A stretch of DNA of 32,000 nucleotides, from NCBI RefSeq assembly GCF_002075285.3, contig NZ_CP021983.2, positions 3,240,001-3,272,000 of the forward strand, written 5' to 3'. Position 1 is the stretch's first letter, and each line of letters starts with the position of its first letter. The position numbers were made by a program, and so were the translations under genes. The notes below the pieces were generated by a model. The model was not told the DNA's origin and searched no databases. It saw nothing but the letters and a program-made list of their open reading frames with translations. This stretch comes from Halomicronema hongdechloris C2206 (GTDB taxonomy: Bacteria; Cyanobacteriota; Cyanobacteriia; Phormidesmidales; Phormidesmidaceae). Of the stretch, positions 8,423 to 32,000 are shown in pieces.

Positions 8423-9124
8423 TCAGGTATCGAGAGGGTCAATGCCCTGCGCTTTCATTTGAGCCCGGAGGCGCTGTAGTTCCTGCTCTGCCTGCTCTGC
8501 CCGCTGGCGTTCTTGTGCCGCTAGCTCCTCGGGGGAGGGAATTAATTCCCCATCTGGGGTAAAAAAACGTAGCTTGTTTTCATGCACTCCCAGGTAAAGT
8601 TCCAGTTGATTGCTCCAGAGCCAGCCTTGTCCAGTGGTAGGAATGGGTTCATAGCGACCATCCAACAGGTGGAAGCCTTCTAGCTCAAACGTATCGGGAT
8701 CAAACCAAAAGTAATCGGGGGTACGAAAGATGTTTTGATACAGGACTTTTTTAGGCCCCTTGTCGACCTGCTTAGTCGAGGTGGACAAAATTTCTAGGAT
8801 TACGTTGGGATATTGGCCTTGTTCATCCCATACCACCCAGCTGCGACGATCTTTTTTCTCGGTGCCTAGAACCACAAAAAAGTCCGGCCCCCTAAAATCG
8901 CGGGATTTGAGCTGCTGCTGATTGTAGTAAATCGTCAAGTTACCGGAAATGTAAACATCGTTGCGATCGCACCACCACCCGCGCAAGATTCGAATCAGTA
9001 GGTCGATTTGGTCCCGGTGAAAATCGCTTTCCAAGGGCGGTTCATCACTCCAGAGATTGCTCGGGAGCCACTGCACGTCATCGGCTGCAACCGCTTCAGT
9101 AACCGAGGCTGTGGGCTGAGACAT
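8423..9124 (-). CDS. Uma2-family (DUF820) putative endonuclease with C-terminal coiled coil
   Basis: ORF 8423..9169. The ATG at 9124 is preceded by GGGAGG. 'PDFFVV...EILS' is a PD-(D/E)xK-like core typical of cyanobacterial Uma2 proteins. The tail is charged and helical ('QERQRAEQAEQELQRLRAQ'). Confidence 0.75.
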   Translation of the reverse strand: MSQPTASVTEAVAADDVQWLPSNLWSDEPPLESDFHRDQIDLLIRILRGWWCDRNDVYISGNLTIYYNQQQLKSRDFRGPDFFVVLGTEKKDRRSWVVWDEQGQYPNVILEILSTSTKQVDKGPKKVLYQNIFRTPDYFWFDPDTFELEGFHLLDGRYEPIPTTGQGWLWSNQLELYLGVHENKLRFFTPDGELIPSPEELAAQERQRAEQAEQELQRLRAQMKAQGIDPLDT

Positions 9125-10035
9125 AGGTGAACCTCCCGCAGAATACATCCATTGTATGCAACTACCCATGTATGCAATTACCCAGGGGCCTTCAGCATGT
9201 CACTGCAGATTGGCCCCTGGCACTCGCTCTAGAGTTAGATCACATCCAGCTGATCAGCCTCAAAAAACTAATGCGGATTTGATATTGGGTAGGTGATATA
9301 GCAACCGTGCCTATGCTTAGGACGGTTGCGGTCAGGTAGCTCCCTAGGCTAGGCATGGGAGCGATTCTCAATGTCCTAAGCTACCTGACAAACGCAATAG
9401 CTATTCCCTGTGCCGGTTGGTAAAGGCTGACTACCCCGTGGCGGTGGGTGCAGCGGTAGAGGGTCAGGACACTGAAGCACCAGAGGTCGGTTAACGGCCG
9501 CAGTGCAATGCAACTAATGGTGTTTGCAGCCAGGTGTCAATAGCAGCCTGGGGAGCTGGCATGGCTGCCGCCCTTAAAGCCAGCTGGGGAAGTGGCATAG
9601 AACTGCCTTAGGTTGGCCGGTGTAGTCGTTACAACATAGATACAGCCTGAGCACATCCTAAAAGCTCATGGCTGCACCCCAACGGCATGGGTCTACCTAT
9701 GATGACGACCATATCCCCCAGCCTCAGACCTGAGACAAGCTTCCTGATGATGTAGACGTGGACTTTGGTTGGGTCCCGTTTAGATCTGACGGGTTACCTG
9801 CCGGAAGCCTCGATCTAGAGCTGGCTTGATTATAGACCTGTGGGTCGTTGTTTGACGTTTAGATCCTGCTGTTCTGCATTAGATAGACAGGCGCAGGGCC
9901 GAGCGCCTGCCGTGAACGGGCAGATTGGCAGGAAAACACCCAATACCCATTGACTAGGTTCGGTTGGTTCTACGGAATCAGGCGGGGACCGTTGGTGGCG
10001 TGCAATGTAAACACGACTTGATTTGGAGAACTACC

Positions 10036-24171: not shown

Positions 24172-24869
24172 GTCTGGTTTTGAACAACGTGCACAGTGGC
24201 TATGGTGGGGTCGATATCCTCAAGGGAGTGAACTTGAGGGTGGCGCCGGGAGAAATAGTGGTCATCATTGGCCCTAACGGGGCTGGCAAGTCGACAGTGT
24301 TGAAGTCATTGTTCGGCTTGGCGACTGTGCGGCAGGGCAAAATTTTCTTCCAGGGCCAAGAGATTACCCGACTGCGATGCGATCGCATGGTGCGACGCGG
24401 CATCTGTTATGTTCCCCAAACCAACAACGTGTTTGCCTCCCTCTCCGTACAAGAAAACCTAGAGATGGGTGCCTTCGTCCGTGACGATGACTATCGTCCC
24501 CAATTAGAGCAGGTTTACGAGCTATTTCCCCCCCTGCGAAAAAAGCATCAGCAACCAGCCGGAACCCTATCTGGGGGCCAACGGCAAATGGTAGCCATGG
24601 GGCGTGCCCTCATGGTGCAGCCCCAGCTACTGCTACTCGATGAGCCCACCGCCGGACTGTCTCCCCTATTTGTCCAGCAAATCTTCGACATCATCGGCAC
24701 CATCAACCAACTGGGCGTCAGTCTGCTGATAGTCGAGCAAAATGCCAAGCAAGCGCTACAGATGGCAGATCGCGGCTACGTCCTCACCATGGGCCAAAAC
24801 CGCTACGAAGATACCGGCCAAAACCTGCTGAATAACCCTCAAATTGCCGATATGTTTCTGGGCGGATAA
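24168..24869 (+). CDS. livF: ABC transporter ATP-binding protein (LivF/NatE type)
   Basis: The ATG at 24168 overlaps the livG stop (ATGA). Walker A 'GPNGAGKST', signature 'LSGGQRQMVAMGR', Walker B 'LLLDEPTAG'. Confidence 0.9.
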   Translation: MSLVLNNVHSGYGGVDILKGVNLRVAPGEIVVIIGPNGAGKSTVLKSLFGLATVRQGKIFFQGQEITRLRCDRMVRRGICYVPQTNNVFASLSVQENLEMGAFVRDDDYRPQLEQVYELFPPLRKKHQQPAGTLSGGQRQMVAMGRALMVQPQLLLLDEPTAGLSPLFVQQIFDIIGTINQLGVSLLIVEQNAKQALQMADRGYVLTMGQNRYEDTGQNLLNNPQIADMFLGG

Positions 24870-25000
24870 CGGTGAAAGCCAGCGGCTAGGGTAAAGGAAT
24901 GGTTCAGTAACATTAGCAAGATCTATCTGTTGTCTGCGAGTTTCCTCATTTGCAGTGCCTCACTAACCCTGCATTGTTAGTTCACCATCCCCTTCCCATC

Positions 25001-25034
25001 TCACCGGACATTCGGTTTTCCCGAGTCCGGCGAT
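25001..25034 (-). ncRNA. Group II intron domain V
   Basis: The 34-nt AUCGCCGGACUCGGGAAAACCGAAUGUCCGGUGA folds into a 9-bp lower helix with a G.U wobble in the triad position (CGC), a 2-nt bulge (AU), a 4-bp upper helix and a purine-rich GAAAA loop. Confidence 0.6.
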
Positions 25035-25044
25035 CCGACAGTCT

Positions 25045-25973
25045 TCATCGCAGAGCATTCACAGTCCGATTTTCGTACTTGATGAGTCCACTAGCAATGT
25101 AGATCATTCCCATTGCATAGAGTTTCCAGTCTGGATAGCGGTCCCATCCAAAGCCTCGACGTTTGCTTCGGTAACTCAAGTATCGACGAAACCGGGTATT
25201 GATAAAGTGTTGCAATCGACGAAACGCCTGACTTGCACTGGTGTGTCGGTAATAATTGACCCATCCTCGTACCATCAGGCTAATCCGCTGCAACCACTCG
25301 TTTGGCGAAATCGGTGCTCGTCGGCTGGTAATCTGCCGAATTTTCTGCCGAATTCGCTGTTGAGCCGTTTGGCTGGGCTGAATATAGATCGTTGGCTTGC
25401 CGCTGCGCCCACTGCGTCGCTTCACAAAATGGAACCCGATGAAATCAAACCCATCGGCTAATCTTGTAATCCGGGTTTTCTCCCGGTTCAAGCTCAGTTC
25501 CATCCGTTGGGCAATCGCCTCGAACGCTTGTAACGCTTGTTGTGCGTTCCCTCGGCAAACCAGAATCACATCATCGGCATACCGGTGCATCGTCGCGCCT
25601 AACTGCTGAGGATACCCTCGCGATTGCCAGACCCGATCCAGCAAATTCAGGTAGATGTTGCTGTAGAGGGGGGCAATTGGCGAACCTTGTGGCACACCTA
25701 CCCTCGTTGGCTCAATCTTACCTGCATATGCCACACCCACTTTCAGGCTTTGCTTGATCAGCTTCAGCATACTCCCATCCACCACTCGCTCCTGGATTAA
25801 CACCAGCAGCTTGTCGTGTGGAATGCTTGTAAAGTACCTTTTCAAGTCGATTTCCACCACGCCCCATGCTCCCCGATACAGGTCGTCTCGGATGGCAAGC
25901 GATGCCATCTTCGCATCCCGTTTCGGGCGATACCCATAGGAACACTCCTGAAAATCTGCCTCAAAGATTGGCT
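25045..25973 (-). pseudogene. Group II intron reverse transcriptase/maturase, C-terminal fragment
   Basis: 'PIFEADFQECSYGYRPKRDAK-MASLAIRDDL..', RT motif 'RYADDVILVC', and maturase X domain 'RGWVNYYRHT'. It is truncated at its 5' side by the IS. Confidence 0.85.
25966..25973. repeat. Target-site duplication GATTGGCT (left copy)
   Basis: An identical 8-mer directly flanks both ends of the IS. Removing the IS and one copy restores '..KLVLEPIFEADFQ..' in the intron ORF. Confidence 0.85.
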
Positions 25974-26000
25974 GGCTCTGCAGGAATGAGTATGCTGGTG
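25974..26000 (+). repeat. IS left terminal inverted repeat
   Basis: 19/27 matches to the reverse complement of 27229-27255. It starts with GGCTCT, as recalled for ISL3-family ends. Confidence 0.75.
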
Positions 26001-26006
26001 TAGTAG

Positions 26007-27239
26007 ATGCTATACCGTATCGCTATGGTACCTCTCTTGAGTGAACTCTTGGGGTTGTCTGGCATTGATGTGGAGTCATACCAGGAGAGCGAGGATGGCT
26101 TGATTCTGGAGGTAGAAGCGCACAGGGACACAGCAATCTGTCCTCGCTGCGGGACTTTGAGCCACCACCTCCATCAGAATCATGGCTACCTGGTGCGTGA
26201 CCTACCCATCAGCCATTACCGGAAGACCTGGTTACGGGTGAATCGCCGCCAGTTTAAGTGTTCGACCTGCGGTAAACCCTTCAGCGAGGAGCTGGAGTTT
26301 GTCGGCGCGCGTCGGGTGTACACGGACCGGTATGCCGAGGTGGTGGTGAGTGAGGTGATTCATAGTAATACGGCTAATGTGGCGCGACAGCACGGGTTGA
26401 GCGAAGATATCGTCTGGTCCATGGTGGAGTATGTCAGCGAAAAAAAGTCTGTATTGACTTGAGTGGATTGCGGCGGTTGGGCATCGACGAAATCGCGCTA
26501 CGTAAAGGTCACAAGGACTTTGCTGTGGTCTTGAGTGACCTCGATACTCACAGGCTGATTGGGATGGCTCCAGCGCGGACTCATGCGGCGATTGAAGCCG
26601 TGCTCAACACCTGGGGTGCCGAAGTGCTCTCAAACATTGAAGAAGTCAGCATGGATCTCTCCGGCAATTACCGGGGCTTAGTGCATCGCCTGATGCCTCA
26701 AGCCGAGATTGTGGCCGACCGTTTCCATGTCATGAGTCTGGTCAATCAGGAATTGAATCAAGCCCGTAACGCCCTCCGGCGGACACCCGAGGCTTTAGCC
26801 GAGGGCGTCACTCCTGAGGCGGCTAAAGCAGCGCTCAAATCCAGTAAGTATGCCCTCCTCAAGCCAGAAGCCCATCTCACCAAGACCCAGCAGGACAAGC
26901 TCGTTGAGGTCAAAGCTGTTTCGCCGAAACTCGCCTTGATGCATCAGACCAAAGAAGCCTTTAGGACTCGATTTGAGGCTCAGTCTTGGGCTCAAGCCCT
27001 GCCGGGTTTCCTGGGCTGGATGGGAACCGCGCAATCCCTCTACCCCGAGGCTGTGGCAACGATGAAGCGATGGTTTGGCGAAATCCTCCAGTACTTTGAA
27101 CACCGCACCACAAGCGGTGTCGTCGAAGGCATCAATACTCGCCTAAAGTTGATCAAGCGCTCTGGACGGGTTCACCAACTTTGAGCGATTTCGGCTCCGC
27201 TGCCTCATCTGCTGGCATTTTTCTCCTGCTGCTGCATAA
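26007..27239 (+). pseudogene. ISL3-family transposase split into three frame segments
   Basis: Segment 1 (26007-26447) has zinc-finger CxxC pairs 'CPRCG..CSTCG'. Segment 2 (-1 frame, to about 27167) has 'LGIDEIALRKGHKDF...ADRFHV' of the DDE domain. Segment 3 (+1 frame, 27168-27239) reads 'GFTNFERFRLRCL', the conserved ISL3 C-terminus. Confidence 0.8.
26441..26447 (+). other. A AAA AAG heptamer in the zero frame at the ORF1/ORF2 junction of the transposase
   Basis: The zero-frame codons are gaA AAA AAG. A -1 slip gives '..SEKK-VCIDLSGLRRLGIDEIALRKGH', a continuous, sensible ISL3 sequence. Confidence 0.5.
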
Positions 27240-27255
27240 TTATCCCAGGAGAGCC
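27229..27255 (-). repeat. IS right terminal inverted repeat
   Basis: See the left IR. Confidence 0.75.
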
Positions 27256-27263
27256 GATTGGCT
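27256..27263. repeat. Target-site duplication GATTGGCT (right copy)
   Basis: See the left copy. Confidence 0.85.
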
Positions 27264-27645
27264 CTAATACCAACTTCATTGCTGTCTGCACAATCCGGTC
27301 TTTTACCGTCGCAATCCCTAAGGGACGCGTGCCTCCTTGCGGCTTCGGGATGTCCACCCGTCGTACCGCATCAAAGTGATAGGTTTGTTTCCGTAATTGC
27401 GCTTGCAATTGTTGGATCAATGTCACCGCCTGTCCATTCTCTTCAATCTCGCGAATCGAAACGCCATCGATCCCAGGTGCGCCCTGATTTAGCCTGACTT
27501 GTCGCCACGCTTCCCACAGCACATCTTCTCGACAGAGCTTGTCATATAGACTGTAGAATTTTGTTTGCGGCTCCTGCTTAGCTTTGCGATATAAGCTCCT
27601 CTGGAGTTGTCGAACTTTTTCTGTTTCGTTGGTAGCCATTGGCAA
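27256..27645 (-). pseudogene. Group II intron reverse transcriptase/maturase, N-terminal fragment (130 codons)
   Basis: 'MATNETEKVRQLQRSLYRKAKQEP..LWEAWRQVRLNQGAPGIDGVSI..RRVDIPKPQGGTRPLGIATVKDRIVQTAMKLVLEPI' covers RT domains 0-2. The authentic sequence stops exactly at the IS junction. The likely start is the ATG at 27639. Confidence 0.85.
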
Positions 27646-28259
27646 TCAAAACATCCTCAACTCGTTTGGATACTGTTAACTGAAGTCAGGTTCCTTCCCT
27701 CCGATGGGGTTATGTTGTCCCACATCCTCAAGCAGTACTACGAACCTGGCGGACTTCTCCATCTACCAGCTCTGATTTCGGAGTTCCCTTATACAGACCT
27801 GTTGTTCGTCGCGACCGAACATAGATAGAGATCTCCCGACCTGGAACGACCAACTTTTCCAACGTGCCACCTCCACTACCCCGATGGGGGAAGGTTGGTC
27901 AAATGTTCGTTGAATCCCTTCCTTCTTGCAGCATTCCCGGTCTGCCGACCCGGTCTGCTCCCACAACTTTAGGTTTGACGAGGCTGATTTGAGTTCACTT
28001 TCGTTGCGGCCCGTTGGTTTGCCGCTGCTCACTTAAGCCCAGGAATCACTCCCTCAACTCGTTCGCGAAGCGTGCCGGAGGCATACATTGGCTAGACCCT
28101 TGAACGAACAATTAGGGTCAGGGGACTTTCACCCCATTAGTGTGTCGCCTGTATCGGCATGCCGGCAGATAACTTTGGTATCCTACCGATAACCTTTGTT
28201 CCGTCCGCACCAACGAGTTGTTATGCTGCGCTGACCTACCTGACGACATGGCTTTAAGA

Positions 28260-30650
28260 CTAAAGAAAAGCGCTAGGGATATGGAGTACTAGAGGGAGAT
28301 GCAGAAAATTGTCATATTGTGGAGCAATCCGCTGTAGATACTGAAGATAACCTAGCCAATGAAGAGTTTTATCATTAGGTTGTAGGAGTGGATTTGCCTC
28401 AACCAATGTAATTTTCTTGGCAGTGGTTTTCGTTTTAGGCTGAATAACCTTGCCGGATCTATGCTCGTACGGTCGCAGCATTGACTCTTGAGAGTTGCTT
28501 TGATCAGTACTAGCTTTAGGGCGAATTAGGAGATATGAATTATCACCAAATTGAGCAATCGCTCTACCTCGTGCAGGCTGATTTTTATCGTTATTCCAAA
28601 GTGTCGCCTGTGGCAGTTCTCCACCATCACGACATCGGATCACTCGACAATTATTTGGTAGTTTAAACAGCTCTAACTCGCCATTTTGGTTAAGTAAAGA
28701 AATTGTGCCGTCCGCCCCAAATTTAGAATCATACAATCCATTGAGAGCCTGTCTCGTATTATTTGAGTAGGGTAGAATTAATGTCGAGATGGTTGAATCT
28801 GCAAGCTCCCTAAAAAAACTGGAGGTAAGATTTTTCAGCTTTAATCCTTTGCAACCTTCAATGGTAGTTGCAGCTTGAACGTAAGGAATAAATTCACGTA
28901 AAGGTTGCCAAGTGCTGATCGCAGTGCGACCTGTTAATATTCCTTTCGCGTCCAACTTTACAGCAACAGGCAAGTAATTTCCATTAGAGAGCTTGTGCAA
29001 GTGAATGCCGATTGTTTGCAAGTCTAGAGGAAGTTCGTAGGCTTTGAGGGCTTCAGGGATTAACCCATCATGATAGCCCAAGCGGCATTTCATGGTGAGC
29101 AAGGTTGCTTTACACTTGTGCGATATTTCCTCAACTTCATCTTCACCTGTCGGGACTGTCAATCTCTTTATAAGCAAGTTACGATCTGGCAAAAACTCCT
29201 CAAGTGAATTATATGGATCCTCTTGCGGTCTTTGTTTGAAATAATTCTCAGGATAAATCGGAAGAATGAGTACTTTTGTCTCGTTGCAACGCTCAGGGAG
29301 TGCTTTAACTCGTTCTGCTATTACCTGGTCACGATCCTGGTTACGTTGCTGCCAATTATCTTCAGGTGTTACAGGTATTGGATTACACATTTCAACCAGC
29401 CCTGGATCGGTTTCCTTAATGAGGTTGAATTTAAGCTTTTTAGCTTCATGTTCAAGTGCTTTGCCTATATCCTGAAAATCAACATAATGGATTAAATCAG
29501 GACAGGAAGAGGGTCGGAGTTTTGAAAATTTAGAATTGCCTTTGTCAATAATCTTAGGTTCAAAGTATTCAAAGCCAGGTTGTAATATTGGTGCGATTGT
29601 GTCGAATAAGTGAGCTAAATCGTTAGGTGTAACCCCCGCTGTAACATCCTGAAATTTTTCACGCCCCTCACGATTGACAACCAAAAAACGCAGCTTTAAA
29701 TCAGGATTAGACCAACCAAGTGGATTACTTAAAAGCTCATCTGCACTAGGAACAGAATCATAGTCAAATTTACTAAGAAGTTCAGCTAAGTTGTTTTCCC
29801 AGCATCGAACTTCATTGATTTTTGCAGTACAAACTCCATTAGGAGTATAAATCATCACGCTAAAAGATTCAGGCAGTTTTTTGCGGGTGTAAGGCTTAGA
29901 AAGATAACGACGCACCCCAAAGTCGAGGGGTAAATATATTTGAGGTTGCCCCGGAATCTGAAGCAATCGTGGATGAATCATGAAGGAGTAAGGGTTACCT
30001 TTTTTGGAATAAAAAACATCCGTAATACAAAATTGAGGTTTTTGAAATAAGGAGCTTGCGATTTCTAAAGCAGGAAGAAATTTAATTGATTGGAATTGAG
30101 AACTAAACTCAGGAAAACTGAGATTACTTTTTACGATTTGTGAAACTACAATACTCGGAATTATTTCAAATAAGCAAGAATCTCGTGGTTGCGCAGTACT
30201 ATTGACGGAAAGCTCCCAGTCTTCTGGTGAAAGCTGATGTTCCTGCCATCTAAATGAAGCCTGTTCGATAGCCGCCAATGATGCTGTAATATCTTGCTCG
30301 ACTGCTGATTTTTGTCCGCGTTTCTTAGGAAGTGTAAAGGTCTCTCTCACCCAATGCTTAAGCAATCGCTTAACTCGTTCTTCAGGGACATGTTCAAGGC
30401 AGAAAAGGAAAGGCTTGTCAGTAGGCAAGCGACCATCGGCACAAACAACTTGAGGGATTGAGGCATTAACTAGAGCTTTGAATTGATATCCTGGCAAGCT
30501 GATTGGATGATTGCCTCGCTGTGAGCGATCTCGTGAGTAGTCAACAAGTAAGATCTGCTTGAGGTCAGCAGGAAAAGTCAAACTGTAGTAACTATCACGC
30601 AATTGGTTGGGGTTAAGCTGCAAGGCCGCAGCTTTGAGTGAGATTTTCAT
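28260..30650 (-). CDS. 796-aa Argonaute-like protein with a MID-PIWI-like C-terminal half (catalytic tetrad not evident) and an N-terminal ~450 aa of unknown fold
   Basis: An uninterrupted 796-codon ORF in AT-rich DNA, so the CDS itself is near certain. The function is inferred by eye. MID-like strings are 'KVLILPIYPE..DPYNSLEEFL..LLIKRLTV..KATLLTMKCRLGYHDGLIP'. PIWI-like strings are 'LQTIGIHLHKL', 'NSYLLIRPKAS..SMLRPYEH' and the C-terminal 'LHWLGYLQYLQR...HLPLVLHIPSAFL'. Confidence 0.55.
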   Translation of the reverse strand: MKISLKAAALQLNPNQLRDSYYSLTFPADLKQILLVDYSRDRSQRGNHPISLPGYQFKALVNASIPQVVCADGRLPTDKPFLFCLEHVPEERVKRLLKHWVRETFTLPKKRGQKSAVEQDITASLAAIEQASFRWQEHQLSPEDWELSVNSTAQPRDSCLFEIIPSIVVSQIVKSNLSFPEFSSQFQSIKFLPALEIASSLFQKPQFCITDVFYSKKGNPYSFMIHPRLLQIPGQPQIYLPLDFGVRRYLSKPYTRKKLPESFSVMIYTPNGVCTAKINEVRCWENNLAELLSKFDYDSVPSADELLSNPLGWSNPDLKLRFLVVNREGREKFQDVTAGVTPNDLAHLFDTIAPILQPGFEYFEPKIIDKGNSKFSKLRPSSCPDLIHYVDFQDIGKALEHEAKKLKFNLIKETDPGLVEMCNPIPVTPEDNWQQRNQDRDQVIAERVKALPERCNETKVLILPIYPENYFKQRPQEDPYNSLEEFLPDRNLLIKRLTVPTGEDEVEEISHKCKATLLTMKCRLGYHDGLIPEALKAYELPLDLQTIGIHLHKLSNGNYLPVAVKLDAKGILTGRTAISTWQPLREFIPYVQAATTIEGCKGLKLKNLTSSFFRELADSTISTLILPYSNNTRQALNGLYDSKFGADGTISLLNQNGELELFKLPNNCRVIRCRDGGELPQATLWNNDKNQPARGRAIAQFGDNSYLLIRPKASTDQSNSQESMLRPYEHRSGKVIQPKTKTTAKKITLVEANPLLQPNDKTLHWLGYLQYLQRIAPQYDNFLHLPLVLHIPSAFL

Positions 30651-30652
30651 GA

Positions 30653-32000
30653 TCAGAAACCCTTAACATTGAGAAGTGCTTGAATGCCCTGTGACCAAAG
30701 GAATACTGCTTTAGGATCTTTTTGCAATTGTTTTGCTCGGTCAATCGCATCGCCAAGATAAGAAGAATAAGCTGCATCACACAGCCGTACTGTTGCATCA
30801 ACCTGCCCTCTCATGATGCGAGGCCATAGTTGCCCAATATCCTCAACCCACCACCGATTTAAGAGAATATTATTCATAAAGCTCTTGGAAGCTTGGGGAA
30901 GATAACGTATCTGACGTTTGAAAGCTTGATCAATTAGCCGATCTGCGATTCGTGCATAATATCGGCATTGATCAAGTAGATTAAATCGTTGAGGTGGATC
31001 TTTTTCGGCTAAAAGCTTAGCTCGACGAGCCAAGATGTCAGGTAACCGTTGATCAGTTTCAAAAAGTGAAACCAAAAACAGCTCAATAGAAATTTGTAGG
31101 TCAGTTGGATGAGCGTGTGGTCTAACCAACGAGTAAAGGGCACAAAACGCAGCCTCGCGACTACCGGGCGGAACAATATTAATATCACGACTCACACCCT
31201 GAAAATAAGCAATCAGGACATCAACACCGGGAATAGTGGCAAAGCGCTCAGCGTGACGACGACGAAGACAAGCGGCTCTCTTCCGGGGATCAAAGCTGTC
31301 TAAGTTATCATTATCTCCAACTAGAACTTTACAGCGATCACCCTGTCCCAGAAATTCAAGTGCTTCCCATACGGCCCAGCATTGAGTTTTTGAGTTAGTC
31401 GTCAGAAGTGCCCGCCGTCGGGCTTCAGGATATTGTTGTAAGTCTTGCTCAACGATCGAGGCAGATCCCCCCTCAAAGAGTCGCTTAGTAATTTCAGAGA
31501 TTGCTGCAAGCTTGTCTTCAGTTTCAAGTCCACTCACAAAGATTGGGTTACCGTCAGACTTATAAAACGGATGATAGTGCAGACTAATTTGCCCATGTTG
31601 TCGGTCTTGCCGCTGTAAGAGATAACCATCTGTGCGTAAGTGATAAATCGAGCGGCCATCAGGTAACCATCCCGTTGCTGTTGCGAGGACAAAGTGGCAT
31701 CCCGCGTAGTCGTCAAGTTCATACAGCTTACTCAAGTTAGCGACCAGGTCAGGCCCACTAAACAATAGTGAGAAATACAAGAGGTTAAGATCATCATGAT
31801 TAATGCCACGATCTAAAACCAGTCCGGCAGCTCGCCCTGTGATTAAACGAGGAAAAATATTTTCCAAATATTTTGGGTTACTGCTAAGAGCAGGTTGGGG
31901 AGCATCTCTCTTAATTGAGATTGCCATTTCGCTAGCGGTCAACCCGCGATCAGCATCATGCAGCAAAACTAAGAGCGCATTGACGGCTAAAATAATCAGA
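30653..32000 (-). CDS. Partial CDS (N-terminus beyond the window): SF2 / DinG-XPD-like helicase-related protein, upstream partner of the PIWI-like gene
   Basis: The frame stays open past the tracked TTG (31966) to the window edge ('..LIILAVNALLV-LLHDADRG..'). Motif-like strings are 'LLVLLHDADRG' (Walker B/DEAD-like), 'HFVLATATG' (motif III SAT-like) and 'VLIAYFQGVSRDINIVPPG' (resembles the DinG/XPD motif V region). Its TGA lies 2 nt before the downstream ATG. Confidence 0.45.
   Translation of the reverse strand, partial: LIILAVNALLVLLHDADRGLTASEMAISIKRDAPQPALSSNPKYLENIFPRLITGRAAGLVLDRGINHDDLNLLYFSLLFSGPDLVANLSKLYELDDYAGCHFVLATATGWLPDGRSIYHLRTDGYLLQRQDRQHGQISLHYHPFYKSDGNPIFVSGLETEDKLAAISEITKRLFEGGSASIVEQDLQQYPEARRRALLTTNSKTQCWAVWEALEFLGQGDRCKVLVGDNDNLDSFDPRKRAACLRRRHAERFATIPGVDVLIAYFQGVSRDINIVPPGSREAAFCALYSLVRPHAHPTDLQISIELFLVSLFETDQRLPDILARRAKLLAEKDPPQRFNLLDQCRYYARIADRLIDQAFKRQIRYLPQASKSFMNNILLNRWWVEDIGQLWPRIMRGQVDATVRLCDAAYSSYLGDAIDRAKQLQKDPKAVFLWSQGIQALLNVKGF

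What the first reader, a model, noticed from the sequence alone, without database searches (positions are those of the whole stretch)
28263..29288. PIWI-like domain appears catalytically dead
I compared the protein with the eukaryotic/prokaryotic Ago layout, recalled from memory rather than computed. 'LQTIGIHLHKL' sits where 'GxDVxH' (first catalytic Asp) is expected, with His in place of Asp. 'STLILPYSNNTRQAL' sits where '..RDGVSEGQ' (Glu finger) is expected. 'RGRAIAQFGDNSYLLIRPKAS..SMLRPYEH' parallels 'GTVVD....FYLxSH...GTxRPxHY' without the second Asp. 'LHLPLVLHIPSAFL' parallels the 'PxPxYYAHLxA' C-terminus. This suggests a binder rather than a slicer that relies on a partner enzyme, as in other inactive pAgo systems. 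The N-terminal 450 aa show no motif I recognise, and there is no obvious PAZ.
Basis: inference. Interest (0 to 1): 0.7.

Follow-up and report, generated by a model that had tools for sequence, protein, structure and literature searches.

The report
Inactive PIWI-RE Argonaute-like defence protein
The gene encodes a member of the already described bacterial PIWI-RE branch of Argonaute-like proteins. Its cutting site has lost the acidic residues needed for cleavage, as in almost all its relatives, so it most likely recognises nucleic acid and leaves cutting to the helicase and nuclease encoded beside it; this is a correct but ordinary finding.

Summary
The ORF at window 28260-30650 (-), 796 aa, is a genuine PIWI protein of the known pPIWI-RE family. 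It matches Pfam PF13111 and PF13032 and the PADLOC PprPIWI model (E 2e-54). The AF2 model (pLDDT 86.5) hits only Argonautes in the PDB, with E down to 1.6e-13.

The core claim holds. By profile alignment to TtAgo and to the mutagenised PsPIWI-RE, the positions of the catalytic residues carry His550 or His552, Tyr628/Ser629 and Ser793. No Asp or Glu lies within those strands.

'RDG' is the second catalytic Asp, not the Glu finger. The 'GTVVD...RPxHY' segment holds no catalytic Asp.

Loss of the first Asp is the norm here: 57 of 59 family representatives lack an acid there. The domain is under purifying selection (dN/dS about 0.12).

A DinG-like helicase gene ends 2 nt upstream. In loci of 75-91% identical orthologues the operon is REase - Z - DinG - PIWI-RE. 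The most likely role is a guide-loaded sensor that recruits the helicase and the nuclease, working like DdmDE; this is inferred, not shown.

It is a new member of a known kind, in a rare and divergent cyanobacterial clade (Halomicronema hongdechloris).

The parts
28260..30650 (-). Complete pPIWI-RE gene (796 codons plus TAG). The product is identical to NCBI ASC72144.1 / WP_080810188.1 of Halomicronema hongdechloris C2206, annotated as 'DUF3962 domain-containing protein'.
29544..30620 (-). N-terminal domain X of the pPIWI-RE module (aa 11-369). It is beta-rich and has only weak structural resemblance to Argonaute N-terminal lobes and APAZ subunits. No PAZ was detected.
   Evidence: Pfam PF13111, E 7.4e-31. 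AF2 model of aa 1-455, pLDDT 82.8. Foldseek best E 3.9e-4, TM 0.15-0.28, with all hits Ago/APAZ.
29031..29504 (-). MID-like region (about aa 383-540). It holds the family-invariant D478-P479 and G525, and the clade-specific pocket residues Y480, K495, R496, K521 and R523.
   Evidence: hhalign to the TtAgo MID domain; column counts; secondary structure
28263..29030 (-). PIWI / RNase H-fold domain (aa 541-796). Model elements: b1 545-553, b2 559-566, b3 572-576, helices 584-592 and 602-617, b4 623-628, b5 749-755, helices 762-774 and 787-795.
   Evidence: Pfam PF13032; AF2; Foldseek
28995..29003 (-). Position of the first catalytic Asp: H550-L551-H552. Either His may be the counterpart, so there is a two-residue ambiguity.
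   Evidence: hhalign puts H550 on TtAgo D478. The HMM alignment puts H552 on PsPIWI-RE D525. Column 550 is W in 52 of 53 other representatives and H/Y in the clade.
28764..28769 (-). Position of the second catalytic Asp: Y628-S629, at the C-terminal end of beta-4.
   Evidence: PsPIWI-RE D610 aligns with S629. By motif, TtAgo LLLRDG corresponds to LILPYS. The S629 column is Ala in 46 of 53 other representatives.
28272..28274 (-). Position of the fourth tetrad residue: S793. The protein ends 3 aa later.
   Evidence: TtAgo LPAPLHLAD aligns with LPLVLHIPS. PsPIWI-RE has K at this position.
28635..28637 (-). R672, the family-defining Arg of 'PIWI-RE'. It is invariant in 59 of 59 sequences and corresponds to PsPIWI-RE R639.
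28398..28400 (-). E751, the family-defining Glu. It is present in 57 of 59 sequences and corresponds to PsPIWI-RE E718.
30653..32000 (-). C-terminal 448 codons of a DinG-type SF2 helicase gene, which runs off the window. Its TGA stop lies 2 nt before the PIWI-RE ATG. It contains motif VI, QAFKRQIR.
   Evidence: PADLOC PprDinG, E 6.7e-35. 95% identical to aa 435-882 of the L002 helicase. Junction sequence. Motifs.

Best explanation
The ORF encodes a pPIWI-RE family protein, a divergent Argonaute-like protein built as domain X, then MID, then PIWI. Its RNase H active site lacks the metal-binding carboxylates, so it cannot slice by the canonical mechanism.

It is the last gene of a horizontally acquired, low-GC operon. 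In close orthologues that operon reads REase (Y - Zn ribbon - PD-(D/E)xK), Z, DinG-type helicase, PIWI-RE.

Inferred mechanism: the protein anchors the 5' end of a short nucleic-acid guide in its MID pocket and pairs it with invading, or transcribed and replicating, foreign nucleic acid. It then hands the displaced strand to the DinG helicase, and the REase degrades it. This is the same division of labour as in DdmDE, but with the helicase and the nuclease as separate proteins.

Shown here: family membership, the fold, the absence of acidic residues at D1, D2 and D4, purifying selection, and the adjacent helicase.

Inferred: guide binding, recruitment of the partners, and a defence role.
For: Family membership:
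- PF13111 (E 7e-31) and PF13032 (30.4 bits, above the cut-off of 25).
- PADLOC PprPIWI, E 2e-54.
- The family-defining R672 and E751 are present and align to PsPIWI-RE R639 and E718.
- Two helices lie between beta-3 and beta-4, where Burroughs 2013 (PMC3702460) describes an extra helix as a family feature.

Fold: the 50 best PDB matches are all Argonaute/PIWI, E 1.6e-13 to 1e-9, TM up to 0.54.

Dead site:
- D1 is H550 or H552, D2 is S629 or Y628, D4 is S793.
- There is no Asp or Glu in aa 544-566, 619-640 or 781-796.
- 57 of 59 relatives lack an acid within 2 residues of D1, 47 of 59 at D2 and 53 of 59 at D4.

The protein is still functional: dN/dS is 0.12-0.14 over the PIWI domain against two orthologues.

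Partners:
- The upstream ORF matches PprDinG, E 7e-35, and its stop is 2 nt from the ATG.
- Orthologous loci L001 and L002 carry REase, Z and DinG genes.
- In L002 the helicase has Walker A GTGKS, DEAD, a Cys cluster and motif VI, and the REase has a D...DxK-like motif.

Horizontal acquisition: GC is 0.41-0.46 over the operon against 0.51-0.60 elsewhere in the window.

Functional precedent: DdmE is an inactive pAgo that recruits the DinG-like helicase-nuclease DdmD.
Against: - There is no biochemical evidence for this protein, nor for any triad-type inactive PIWI-RE. I found only two papers on PIWI-RE proteins themselves (PMC3702460 and PMC10991935); other papers mention them only in passing.
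- The one characterised member, PsPIWI-RE, is an active nuclease. Its knockout phenotype is ciprofloxacin sensitivity, not loss of defence.
- The residue mapping rests on weak profile alignments (hhalign E 0.0056, probability 6.5%) and on a model whose coordinates I could not inspect.
- The D1 assignment is ambiguous by two residues.
- E586 sits in a column that is often E, Q or D, so a Glu-finger equivalent may survive.
- The REase and Z genes, and the N-terminal half of the helicase, lie outside the window.
Confidence: 0.72

Rival explanations
1. The protein is still a nuclease. It uses a non-canonical active site built from the clade-specific residues H550, H552, Y628 and H790, or from residues elsewhere.
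For: Two His residues occupy the same face of beta-1, where the Asp should be. H552 is invariant in the six clade members, and Y/H occupies position 628. E586 lies in the column that may correspond to the Glu finger.
Against: H550 alternates with Tyr, and Y628 with His, among proteins 74-91% identical. That fits pocket-filling aromatic residues rather than a catalytic set. The rest of the family has W and I/V at the two candidate D1 columns and Ala at the D2 column. RNase H-fold nucleases need carboxylates to bind two metals (established knowledge). Dedicated nuclease and helicase genes accompany this gene.
Confidence: 0.05
2. It is a housekeeping factor that helps replication termination or chromosome decatenation, as proposed for PsPIWI-RE and some pAgos, rather than an anti-invader system.
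For: The PsPIWI-RE knockout is ciprofloxacin-sensitive and its genes sit with DinG and a nuclease. Several pAgos raise ciprofloxacin resistance.
Against: The operon lies in a low-GC segment next to an IS-disrupted group II intron. The clade is extremely sparse: one 50%-identity cluster among 1.84 billion representatives, and one hit among 185,579 species genomes. That is typical of mobile defence genes, not of core functions. PADLOC models it as a pAgo type III defence system.
Confidence: 0.12
3. It is a DdmE-type ('long-C') or long-B inactive pAgo, not a PIWI-RE.
For: It has an inactive PIWI domain, no PAZ, and a DinG-like helicase partner, as in DdmDE.
Against: At E <= 1 the PADLOC scan returned only Ppr/pPIWI_RE models for the PIWI protein and only PprDinG for the helicase. 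The Pfam scan returned only PF13111 and PF13032, so no Piwi (PF02171) match. A family profile finds no PDB chain at E <= 10 that is an Argonaute or DdmE. In orthologous loci the nuclease is a separate REase gene, not fused to the helicase.
Confidence: 0.03
4. The resemblance is chance, or the gene is a decaying pseudogene.
For: Sequence-only searches of the PDB find nothing.
Against: The domain matches are significant. The model is confident, with Argonaute-only structural matches. The ORF is intact and dN/dS is about 0.12.
Confidence: 0.01

Closest known systems
pPIWI-RE family and its REase-DinG-pPIWI-RE gene triad (Burroughs, Iyer & Aravind 2013, PMC3702460; Pfam PF13111/PF13032; PADLOC 'pAgo type III' Ppr models)
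   Same: Domain X, MID and PIWI architecture. Conserved Arg (R672) and Glu (E751). Extra helix after the beta-meander. A DinG-type helicase gene directly upstream, with closely spaced ends. A REase (Y + Zn ribbon + REase) is the first gene in orthologous loci. Catalytic residues are lost, which that paper already reports for most members.
   Different: The nearest relative outside the clade is only about 25% identical (E 1.6e-19). The protein is about 70 aa shorter than the family median of 870. H/Y replaces the near-invariant Trp at the column that hhalign pairs with the first catalytic Asp. The MID pocket reads DPY / K495-R496 / K521-R523 instead of DPK / QF / L..Q. The acidic C-terminal tail is missing. 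In orthologous loci the Z domain is a separate 180-aa gene, which makes a four-gene operon.
PsPIWI-RE of Pseudomonas stutzeri DSM 4166 (Huang et al. 2022, PMC10991935)
   Same: Same family: the A1 profile matches it with E 1e-17 over MID and PIWI. The R and E are shared. It is also encoded next to a DinG helicase and a nuclease.
   Different: PsPIWI-RE keeps D525 and D610, and mutating either one abolishes guide-dependent ssDNA cleavage. The window protein has H552 (or H550) and S629 at those columns.
DdmDE of Vibrio cholerae: DdmE is an inactive 'long-C' pAgo and DdmD is a DinG-like SF2 helicase fused to a PD-(D/E)xK nuclease
   Same: The same three activities are combined: a PIWI protein without the DEDX tetrad and without a canonical PAZ, a DinG-like 5'-3' helicase, and a PD-(D/E)xK nuclease. 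This is the best mechanistic precedent for a guide-bound sensor that recruits a helicase-nuclease.
   Different: No sequence-level relationship is detectable. Here the helicase and the nuclease are separate proteins. The helicase of the L002 orthologue keeps a Cys cluster, whereas the DdmD insert domain has no Fe-S cluster. Guide type, target and phenotype are unknown here.
Classical long pAgos such as TtAgo (long-A, active) and RsAgo (long-B, inactive)
   Same: The overall fold is shared (Foldseek E 1e-11, TM up to 0.53 to TtAgo entries). [quoted passage not shown]
   Different: No Pfam Piwi or PAZ match. DEDD is replaced by H / ? / S / S. The N-terminal lobe is only marginally similar. The C-terminal tail after the fourth tetrad position is missing: 3 aa here against 25 aa in TtAgo.

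Membership tests
pPIWI-RE | Match to the RNaseH_pPIWI_RE model (PF13032) above its curated cut-off | tested here: met
   30.4 bits against a cut-off of 25, E 4.4e-7, aa 560-791. PADLOC PprPIWI, E 2e-54, aa 3-790.
pPIWI-RE | N-terminal domain X (PF13111 / former DUF3962) in place of N-PAZ | tested here: met
   108 bits, E 7.4e-31, aa 11-369. NCBI names the protein 'DUF3962 domain-containing'.
pPIWI-RE | The conserved Arg and Glu that give the family its name | tested here: met
   R672 is invariant in 59 of 59 sequences and E751 is present in 57 of 59. They align to R639 and E718 of PsPIWI-RE.
pPIWI-RE | An additional alpha-helical element after the first three-stranded beta-meander of the RNase H fold | tested here: met
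   The AF2 model has helices 584-592 and 602-617 between b3 (572-576) and b4 (623-628). The feature is described in PMC3702460.
pPIWI-RE | Gene order REase - DinG helicase - pPIWI-RE with closely spaced gene ends | tested here: inconclusive
   A DinG-type helicase is directly upstream, with a 2-nt gap. The window ends inside that gene. The REase and Z genes are seen only in orthologous loci L001 and L002 (75% and 91% identical proteins).
Catalytically active Argonaute (slicer) | DEDX tetrad: Asp on beta-1, Glu finger, Asp at the end of beta-4, Asp/His/Asn/Lys in the C-terminal motif | tested here: not met
   The positions carry H550 or H552, then P589 (with E586 three residues earlier), then S629 or Y628, then S793. 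The reference residues were verified in TtAgo and PsPIWI-RE.
Classical Argonaute/PIWI (Pfam Piwi PF02171, PAZ PF02170) | Sequence match to the Piwi and PAZ models | tested here: not met
   At E <= 1 the Pfam scan returned only PF13111 and PF13032. phmmer and profile searches of the PDB find no Argonaute.
Classical Argonaute/PIWI | Argonaute fold (MID + PIWI, bilobed) | tested here: met
   All 50 best Foldseek PDB matches are Argonaute/PIWI, E 1.6e-13 to 1e-9, with 855-998 aligned columns. The N-terminal half searched alone gives only marginal matches, best E 3.9e-4 and TM <= 0.28.
DdmDE | DdmE-type pAgo and DdmD helicase-nuclease fusion | tested here: not met
   The PADLOC scan returned only Ppr/pPIWI_RE models for the PIWI protein and PprDinG for the helicase at E <= 1. 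The REase is a separate gene in orthologous loci.
DdmDE | Guide-dependent target binding by the inactive Ago, followed by recruitment of the helicase-nuclease | not testable with these tools
   This needs biochemistry or in vivo interference assays.

The most novel reading that the evidence does not exclude
The Halomicronema/Lyngbya clade may be a distinct, compact sub-type of PIWI-RE system. It has a rewired 5'-end pocket (Tyr480, Lys495, Arg496, Lys521 and Arg523 in place of Lys, Gln, Phe, Leu and Gln). It lacks the acidic C-terminal tail found in other members. Its Z domain is split from the helicase, giving a four-gene operon. Together these could mean a different guide-end chemistry (for example metal-independent 5'-phosphate binding, or 5'-OH binding) or a different mode of autoinhibition and partner recruitment from other PIWI-RE systems.
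Probability: 0.2. Interest if true: 0.5.

Novelty: new member of a known kind. Interest (0 to 1): 0.28.

Why it matters
PIWI-RE systems are listed as a class of prokaryotic Argonaute immunity, but the only one studied biochemically is an atypical active member. How the common, catalytically dead versions work with their DinG helicase and restriction-fold nuclease is untested.

This locus adds nothing new in kind. It does supply a compact (796 aa), confidently modelled and clearly inactive member from a rare cyanobacterial clade, which could serve as a test case for the 'sensor recruits helicase plus nuclease' model that DdmDE made plausible.

For genome annotation, the product 'uncharacterized / DUF3962 protein' can be renamed as an inactive pPIWI-RE Argonaute-like protein of a PIWI-RE defence operon.

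Tried and rejected
1. Sequence searches of the PDB found no Argonaute, either with the single protein or with the 59-sequence profile. The best hits were chance (Gemin5; E 0.05-2). The relationship to solved Agos is visible only by fold.

2. The word-indexed protein search returned only five close homologues. The exhaustive HMMER search was what reached the family.

With the single protein it found only Lyngbya sp. CCY1209.

4. An exact look-up of the window protein in the contig index failed, but the cluster look-up identified the source genome.

5. hhalign of the family against TtAgo alone is weak (E 0.059). Against 13 Thermus-type Agos it is still weak (E 0.0056, probability 6.5%). It is collinear, but unreliable around beta-4. 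I therefore anchored D2 on PsPIWI-RE D610 instead.

6. hhalign of PsPIWI-RE against the TtAgo family aligned only the C-terminal motif. This leaves the two-residue ambiguity at D1 (H550 or H552) unresolved.

7. Model coordinates are not exposed by the tools, so I could make no residue-level superposition.

8. I first guessed that H790 matched hAgo2 H807 and that Y628 was D2. I corrected both after checking the TtAgo numbering and the PsPIWI-RE alignment.

9. The Rfam scan of 24500-32000, the tRNA scan, the promoter/terminator scan of 27600-28400 and the repeat search gave nothing relevant.

10. The literature searches turned up only two papers on PIWI-RE proteins themselves, PMC3702460 and PMC10991935; other hits mention the family only in passing or are 'Piwi-re...' word matches.
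Full report
WHAT IS THERE

The finding lies in the C-terminal 342 codons of a single intact ORF, window 28260-30650 on the minus strand (796 aa, ATG start, TAG stop). The exact protein is in NCBI as ASC72144.1 / WP_080810188.1 of the filamentous cyanobacterium Halomicronema hongdechloris C2206. It is annotated only as 'uncharacterized' or 'DUF3962 domain-containing protein'. The neighbouring GlmU and ABC-transporter proteins of the window are from the same 5.58-Mb chromosome.

IS IT A PIWI DOMAIN?

Yes, and more specifically it is the known pPIWI-RE family.
- Pfam gives pPIWI_RE_X (PF13111) over aa 11-369 with E 7.4e-31. It gives RNaseH_pPIWI_RE (PF13032) over aa 560-791 with 30.4 bits against a curated cut-off of 25.
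- PADLOC's PprPIWI model covers aa 3-790 with E 2e-54. PADLOC's 'pAgo type III' corresponds to PIWI-RE systems (PMC11333966).
- An AlphaFold2 model built on a 59-sequence alignment is confident (mean pLDDT 86.5, pTM 0.87).
- Its 50 best Foldseek matches in the PDB are all Argonaute or PIWI proteins from eukaryotes, bacteria and archaea. E-values run from 1.6e-13 to 1e-9, with 855-998 aligned columns and TM up to 0.54.
- Sequence-only searches of the PDB find nothing, even with the family profile. The link to solved Argonautes is therefore visible only at the level of fold.
- The two residues that name the family are present. R672 is invariant in 59 of 59 sequences and E751 is present in 57 of 59. 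They align with R639 and E718 of the characterised PsPIWI-RE.
- The family-specific extra helix after the first beta-meander (PMC3702460) appears in the model as helices 584-592 and 602-617.

IS THE ACTIVE SITE DEAD?

I used two references.

The first is TtAgo, read from plasmid pTT27. I confirmed its tetrad in the sequence: D478 (AVGFDAGG), E512, D546 (LLLRDGR) and D660 (LPAPLHLAD).

The second is PsPIWI-RE. Its sequence is in the supplement of PMC10991935. D525A and D610A each abolish its cleavage activity.

Profile-profile alignment of the family against 13 TtAgo-type proteins is weak but collinear over MID and PIWI (E 0.0056).
- It pairs G548-I549-H550 with G476-F477-D478.
- It pairs LPLVLHIP-S793 with LPAPLHLA-D660.

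The family HMM aligns PsPIWI-RE with E 1e-17.
- It places D525 on H552.
- It places D610 on S629.

The resulting assignments are:
- First Asp: His. It is either H550 or H552, which are two residues apart on the same face of strand b1 (aa 545-553).
- Second Asp: S629, immediately after strand b4 (aa 623-628). It would be Y628 if the register is shifted by one.
- Fourth position: S793.
- Glu finger: hhalign puts TtAgo E512 on P589. E586, three residues earlier, sits in a column that is E, Q or D in most relatives, so a finger-like Glu may persist.

There is no Asp or Glu anywhere in aa 544-566, 619-640 or 781-796. The conclusion therefore survives small alignment shifts.

H550 alternates with Tyr, and Y628 with His, among clade members that are 74-91% identical. 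That argues for pocket-filling residues rather than an alternative catalytic set.

The domain is nevertheless maintained. dN/dS is 0.12-0.14 over the PIWI domain against two orthologues.

- 'RDGVSEGQ' holds the second catalytic Asp, not the Glu finger.
- The 'GTVVD...FYLxSH...GTxRPxHY' stretch contains no catalytic Asp in canonical Agos, so 'without the second Asp' is a mis-recollection.
- The pairing of 'SMLRPYEH' with 'GTxRPxHY' is not supported. The corresponding strand is nearer aa 747-755.
- The 'unrecognised' N-terminal 450 aa is the family's domain X.

Modelled on its own (pLDDT 82.8), that N-terminal half gives only marginal structural matches: best E 3.9e-4 and TM 0.15-0.28. All of them are to Argonaute N-terminal lobes or to APAZ subunits of short-pAgo systems. 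'No obvious PAZ' therefore stands, and the lobe is at most remotely Ago-like.

HOW ORDINARY IS THIS?

Burroughs et al. already stated that the catalytic residues survive only in a subset of pPIWI-RE proteins.

An exhaustive HMMER search of 1.84 billion cluster representatives gave 59 hits; 58 sequences drawn from that search and from the close homologues were aligned with the window protein.
- 57 of the 59 aligned sequences lack any acid within two residues of the D1 column.
- 47 of 59 lack one at D2.
- 53 of 59 lack one at D4.
- Outside the clade, the column of H550 is Trp in 52 of 53 sequences, and the D2 column is Ala in 46 of 53.

A dead PIWI domain is thus the family default.

What is unusual is the lineage. 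Apart from one 50%-identity cluster (Halomicronema, Lyngbya sp. CCY1209 and a few metagenomic contigs), the nearest relative is about 25% identical with E 1.6e-19. Only Lyngbya turned up among 185,579 species genomes.

The clade also differs in three other ways.
- In the MID pocket it reads DPY480, K495-R496 and K521-C-R523-L-G, where the family reads DPK, QF and L-R-Q-L-G. By hhalign, Y480, K495 and R523 correspond to TtAgo K422, Q433 and K457.
- It ends 3 aa after the fourth tetrad position. In the other family members the tail after that position is 0-62 aa long (median 18), and the tails examined are strongly acidic.
- In orthologous loci the Z domain is a separate 180-aa gene.

CONTEXT AND LIKELY MECHANISM

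The ORF directly upstream (30653 to beyond 32000, minus strand) is the C-terminal half of a DinG-type helicase.
- It matches PADLOC PprDinG with E 6.7e-35.
- It is 95% identical to aa 435-882 of the helicase in locus L002.
- Its TGA stop is 2 nt from the PIWI-RE ATG.

Loci of the 91% and 75% identical orthologues show the full operon: REase (pPIWI_RE_Y + Zn ribbon + pPIWI_RE_REase), then Z, then an 882-aa helicase, then PIWI-RE. In L002 the helicase has Walker A GTGKS, a DEAD motif, a Cys cluster and motif VI, and the REase has an FDCK-type (D/E)xK motif.

The operon occupies a low-GC segment (0.41-0.46 against 0.51-0.60 elsewhere). It sits beside an IS-disrupted group II intron ORF, consistent with horizontal acquisition.

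The best-supported model is the one Burroughs et al. proposed, which DdmDE has since made concrete. The inactive PIWI protein binds a short guide by its 5' end and recognises complementary foreign nucleic acid. It then recruits the 5'-3' DinG-type helicase, and the PD-(D/E)xK nuclease degrades the DNA.

DdmD is itself a DinG-like helicase fused to such a nuclease, and DdmE is a DEDX-less pAgo without a PAZ domain. The window protein works like DdmE on this reading, but it is not a member of that family. PADLOC returned only Ppr/pPIWI_RE models for it, the family profile finds no PDB chain that is an Argonaute or DdmE, and the nuclease is a separate gene.

Guide binding, recruitment and a defence phenotype are all inferred. 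The only biochemistry in the family concerns PsPIWI-RE, an active enzyme whose knockout phenotype is ciprofloxacin sensitivity. A role in chromosome maintenance therefore remains a minor rival.

VERDICT

The object is a new, divergent member of a family described in 2013, in which inactivity is the rule. Interest is low to moderate. The clade-specific pocket, the missing acidic tail and the four-gene layout are the only features that might repay follow-up.

Noticed in passing
window 25045-25908 (-), 26007-27184 (+), 27205-27645 (-): The two minus-strand ORFs look like the halves of one group II intron reverse transcriptase/maturase gene, split by an ISL3-family insertion. The 25045-25908 ORF carries RVT_1 and GIIM. 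The 146-aa N-terminal piece has no Pfam hit and is judged RT-like by eye only. The ISL3 transposase is itself in two ORFs that overlap at 26459-26462, so it is probably frameshifted. Rfam finds no intron RNA at gathering score.
   Followed up: partly
window 28000-32000: G+C drops to 0.41-0.46 over the PIWI-RE/helicase genes, against 0.51-0.60 in the other 28 kb. This suggests the operon is a horizontally acquired island whose right-hand edge lies near 28.0-28.2 kb.
   Followed up: partly
window 28263-30650 compared with L002 5547-7934: Synonymous divergence from the 91%-identical orthologue is very uneven. dS is 0.67 in the N-terminal half but 0.06-0.10 in the MID/PIWI half, which suggests recent recombination between clade members.
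   Followed up: no
window 28263-28271 (aa 794-796): The protein ends 3 aa after the fourth tetrad position. In the 53 other family representatives the tail after that position is 0-62 aa long (median 18), and in those examined it is strongly acidic (..EY.LP..DEEE). TtAgo has 25 aa there. The acidic tail might mimic nucleic acid or act as an autoinhibitory element that this clade lacks.
   Followed up: partly
window 29211-29219, 29163-29168, 29082-29090 (aa 478-480, 495-496, 521-523): The predicted 5'-end-binding pocket of the MID domain shows correlated clade-specific changes. It reads DPY, K-R and K-C-R where the family reads DPK, Q-F and L-R-Q. The pocket is therefore more basic and gains a Tyr, as in eukaryotic Agos.
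   Followed up: partly
L001 6810-7352; L002 2357-2899: In the orthologous loci the pPIWI_RE_Z domain is a separate 180-aa gene overlapping its neighbours, whereas it is normally the N-terminus of the DinG helicase. This gives a four-gene rather than a three-gene operon. The matching region of the source genome lies beyond the window end.
   Followed up: partly
L001 12581-13323: In Lyngbya sp. CCY1209 the PIWI-RE operon is followed by XisI/XisH genes (cyanobacterial excision-associated proteins). In the window it is followed instead by the disrupted group II intron. The flanks differ between genomes, as expected for a mobile island.
   Followed up: no
window 8423-9169 (-): A 248-aa Uma2-family putative restriction endonuclease (PF05685, E 9e-23) sits among housekeeping genes (GlmU, UbiA, SurE, DapF). 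This family is common in cyanobacteria, and it has no apparent link to the PIWI-RE operon.
   Followed up: no
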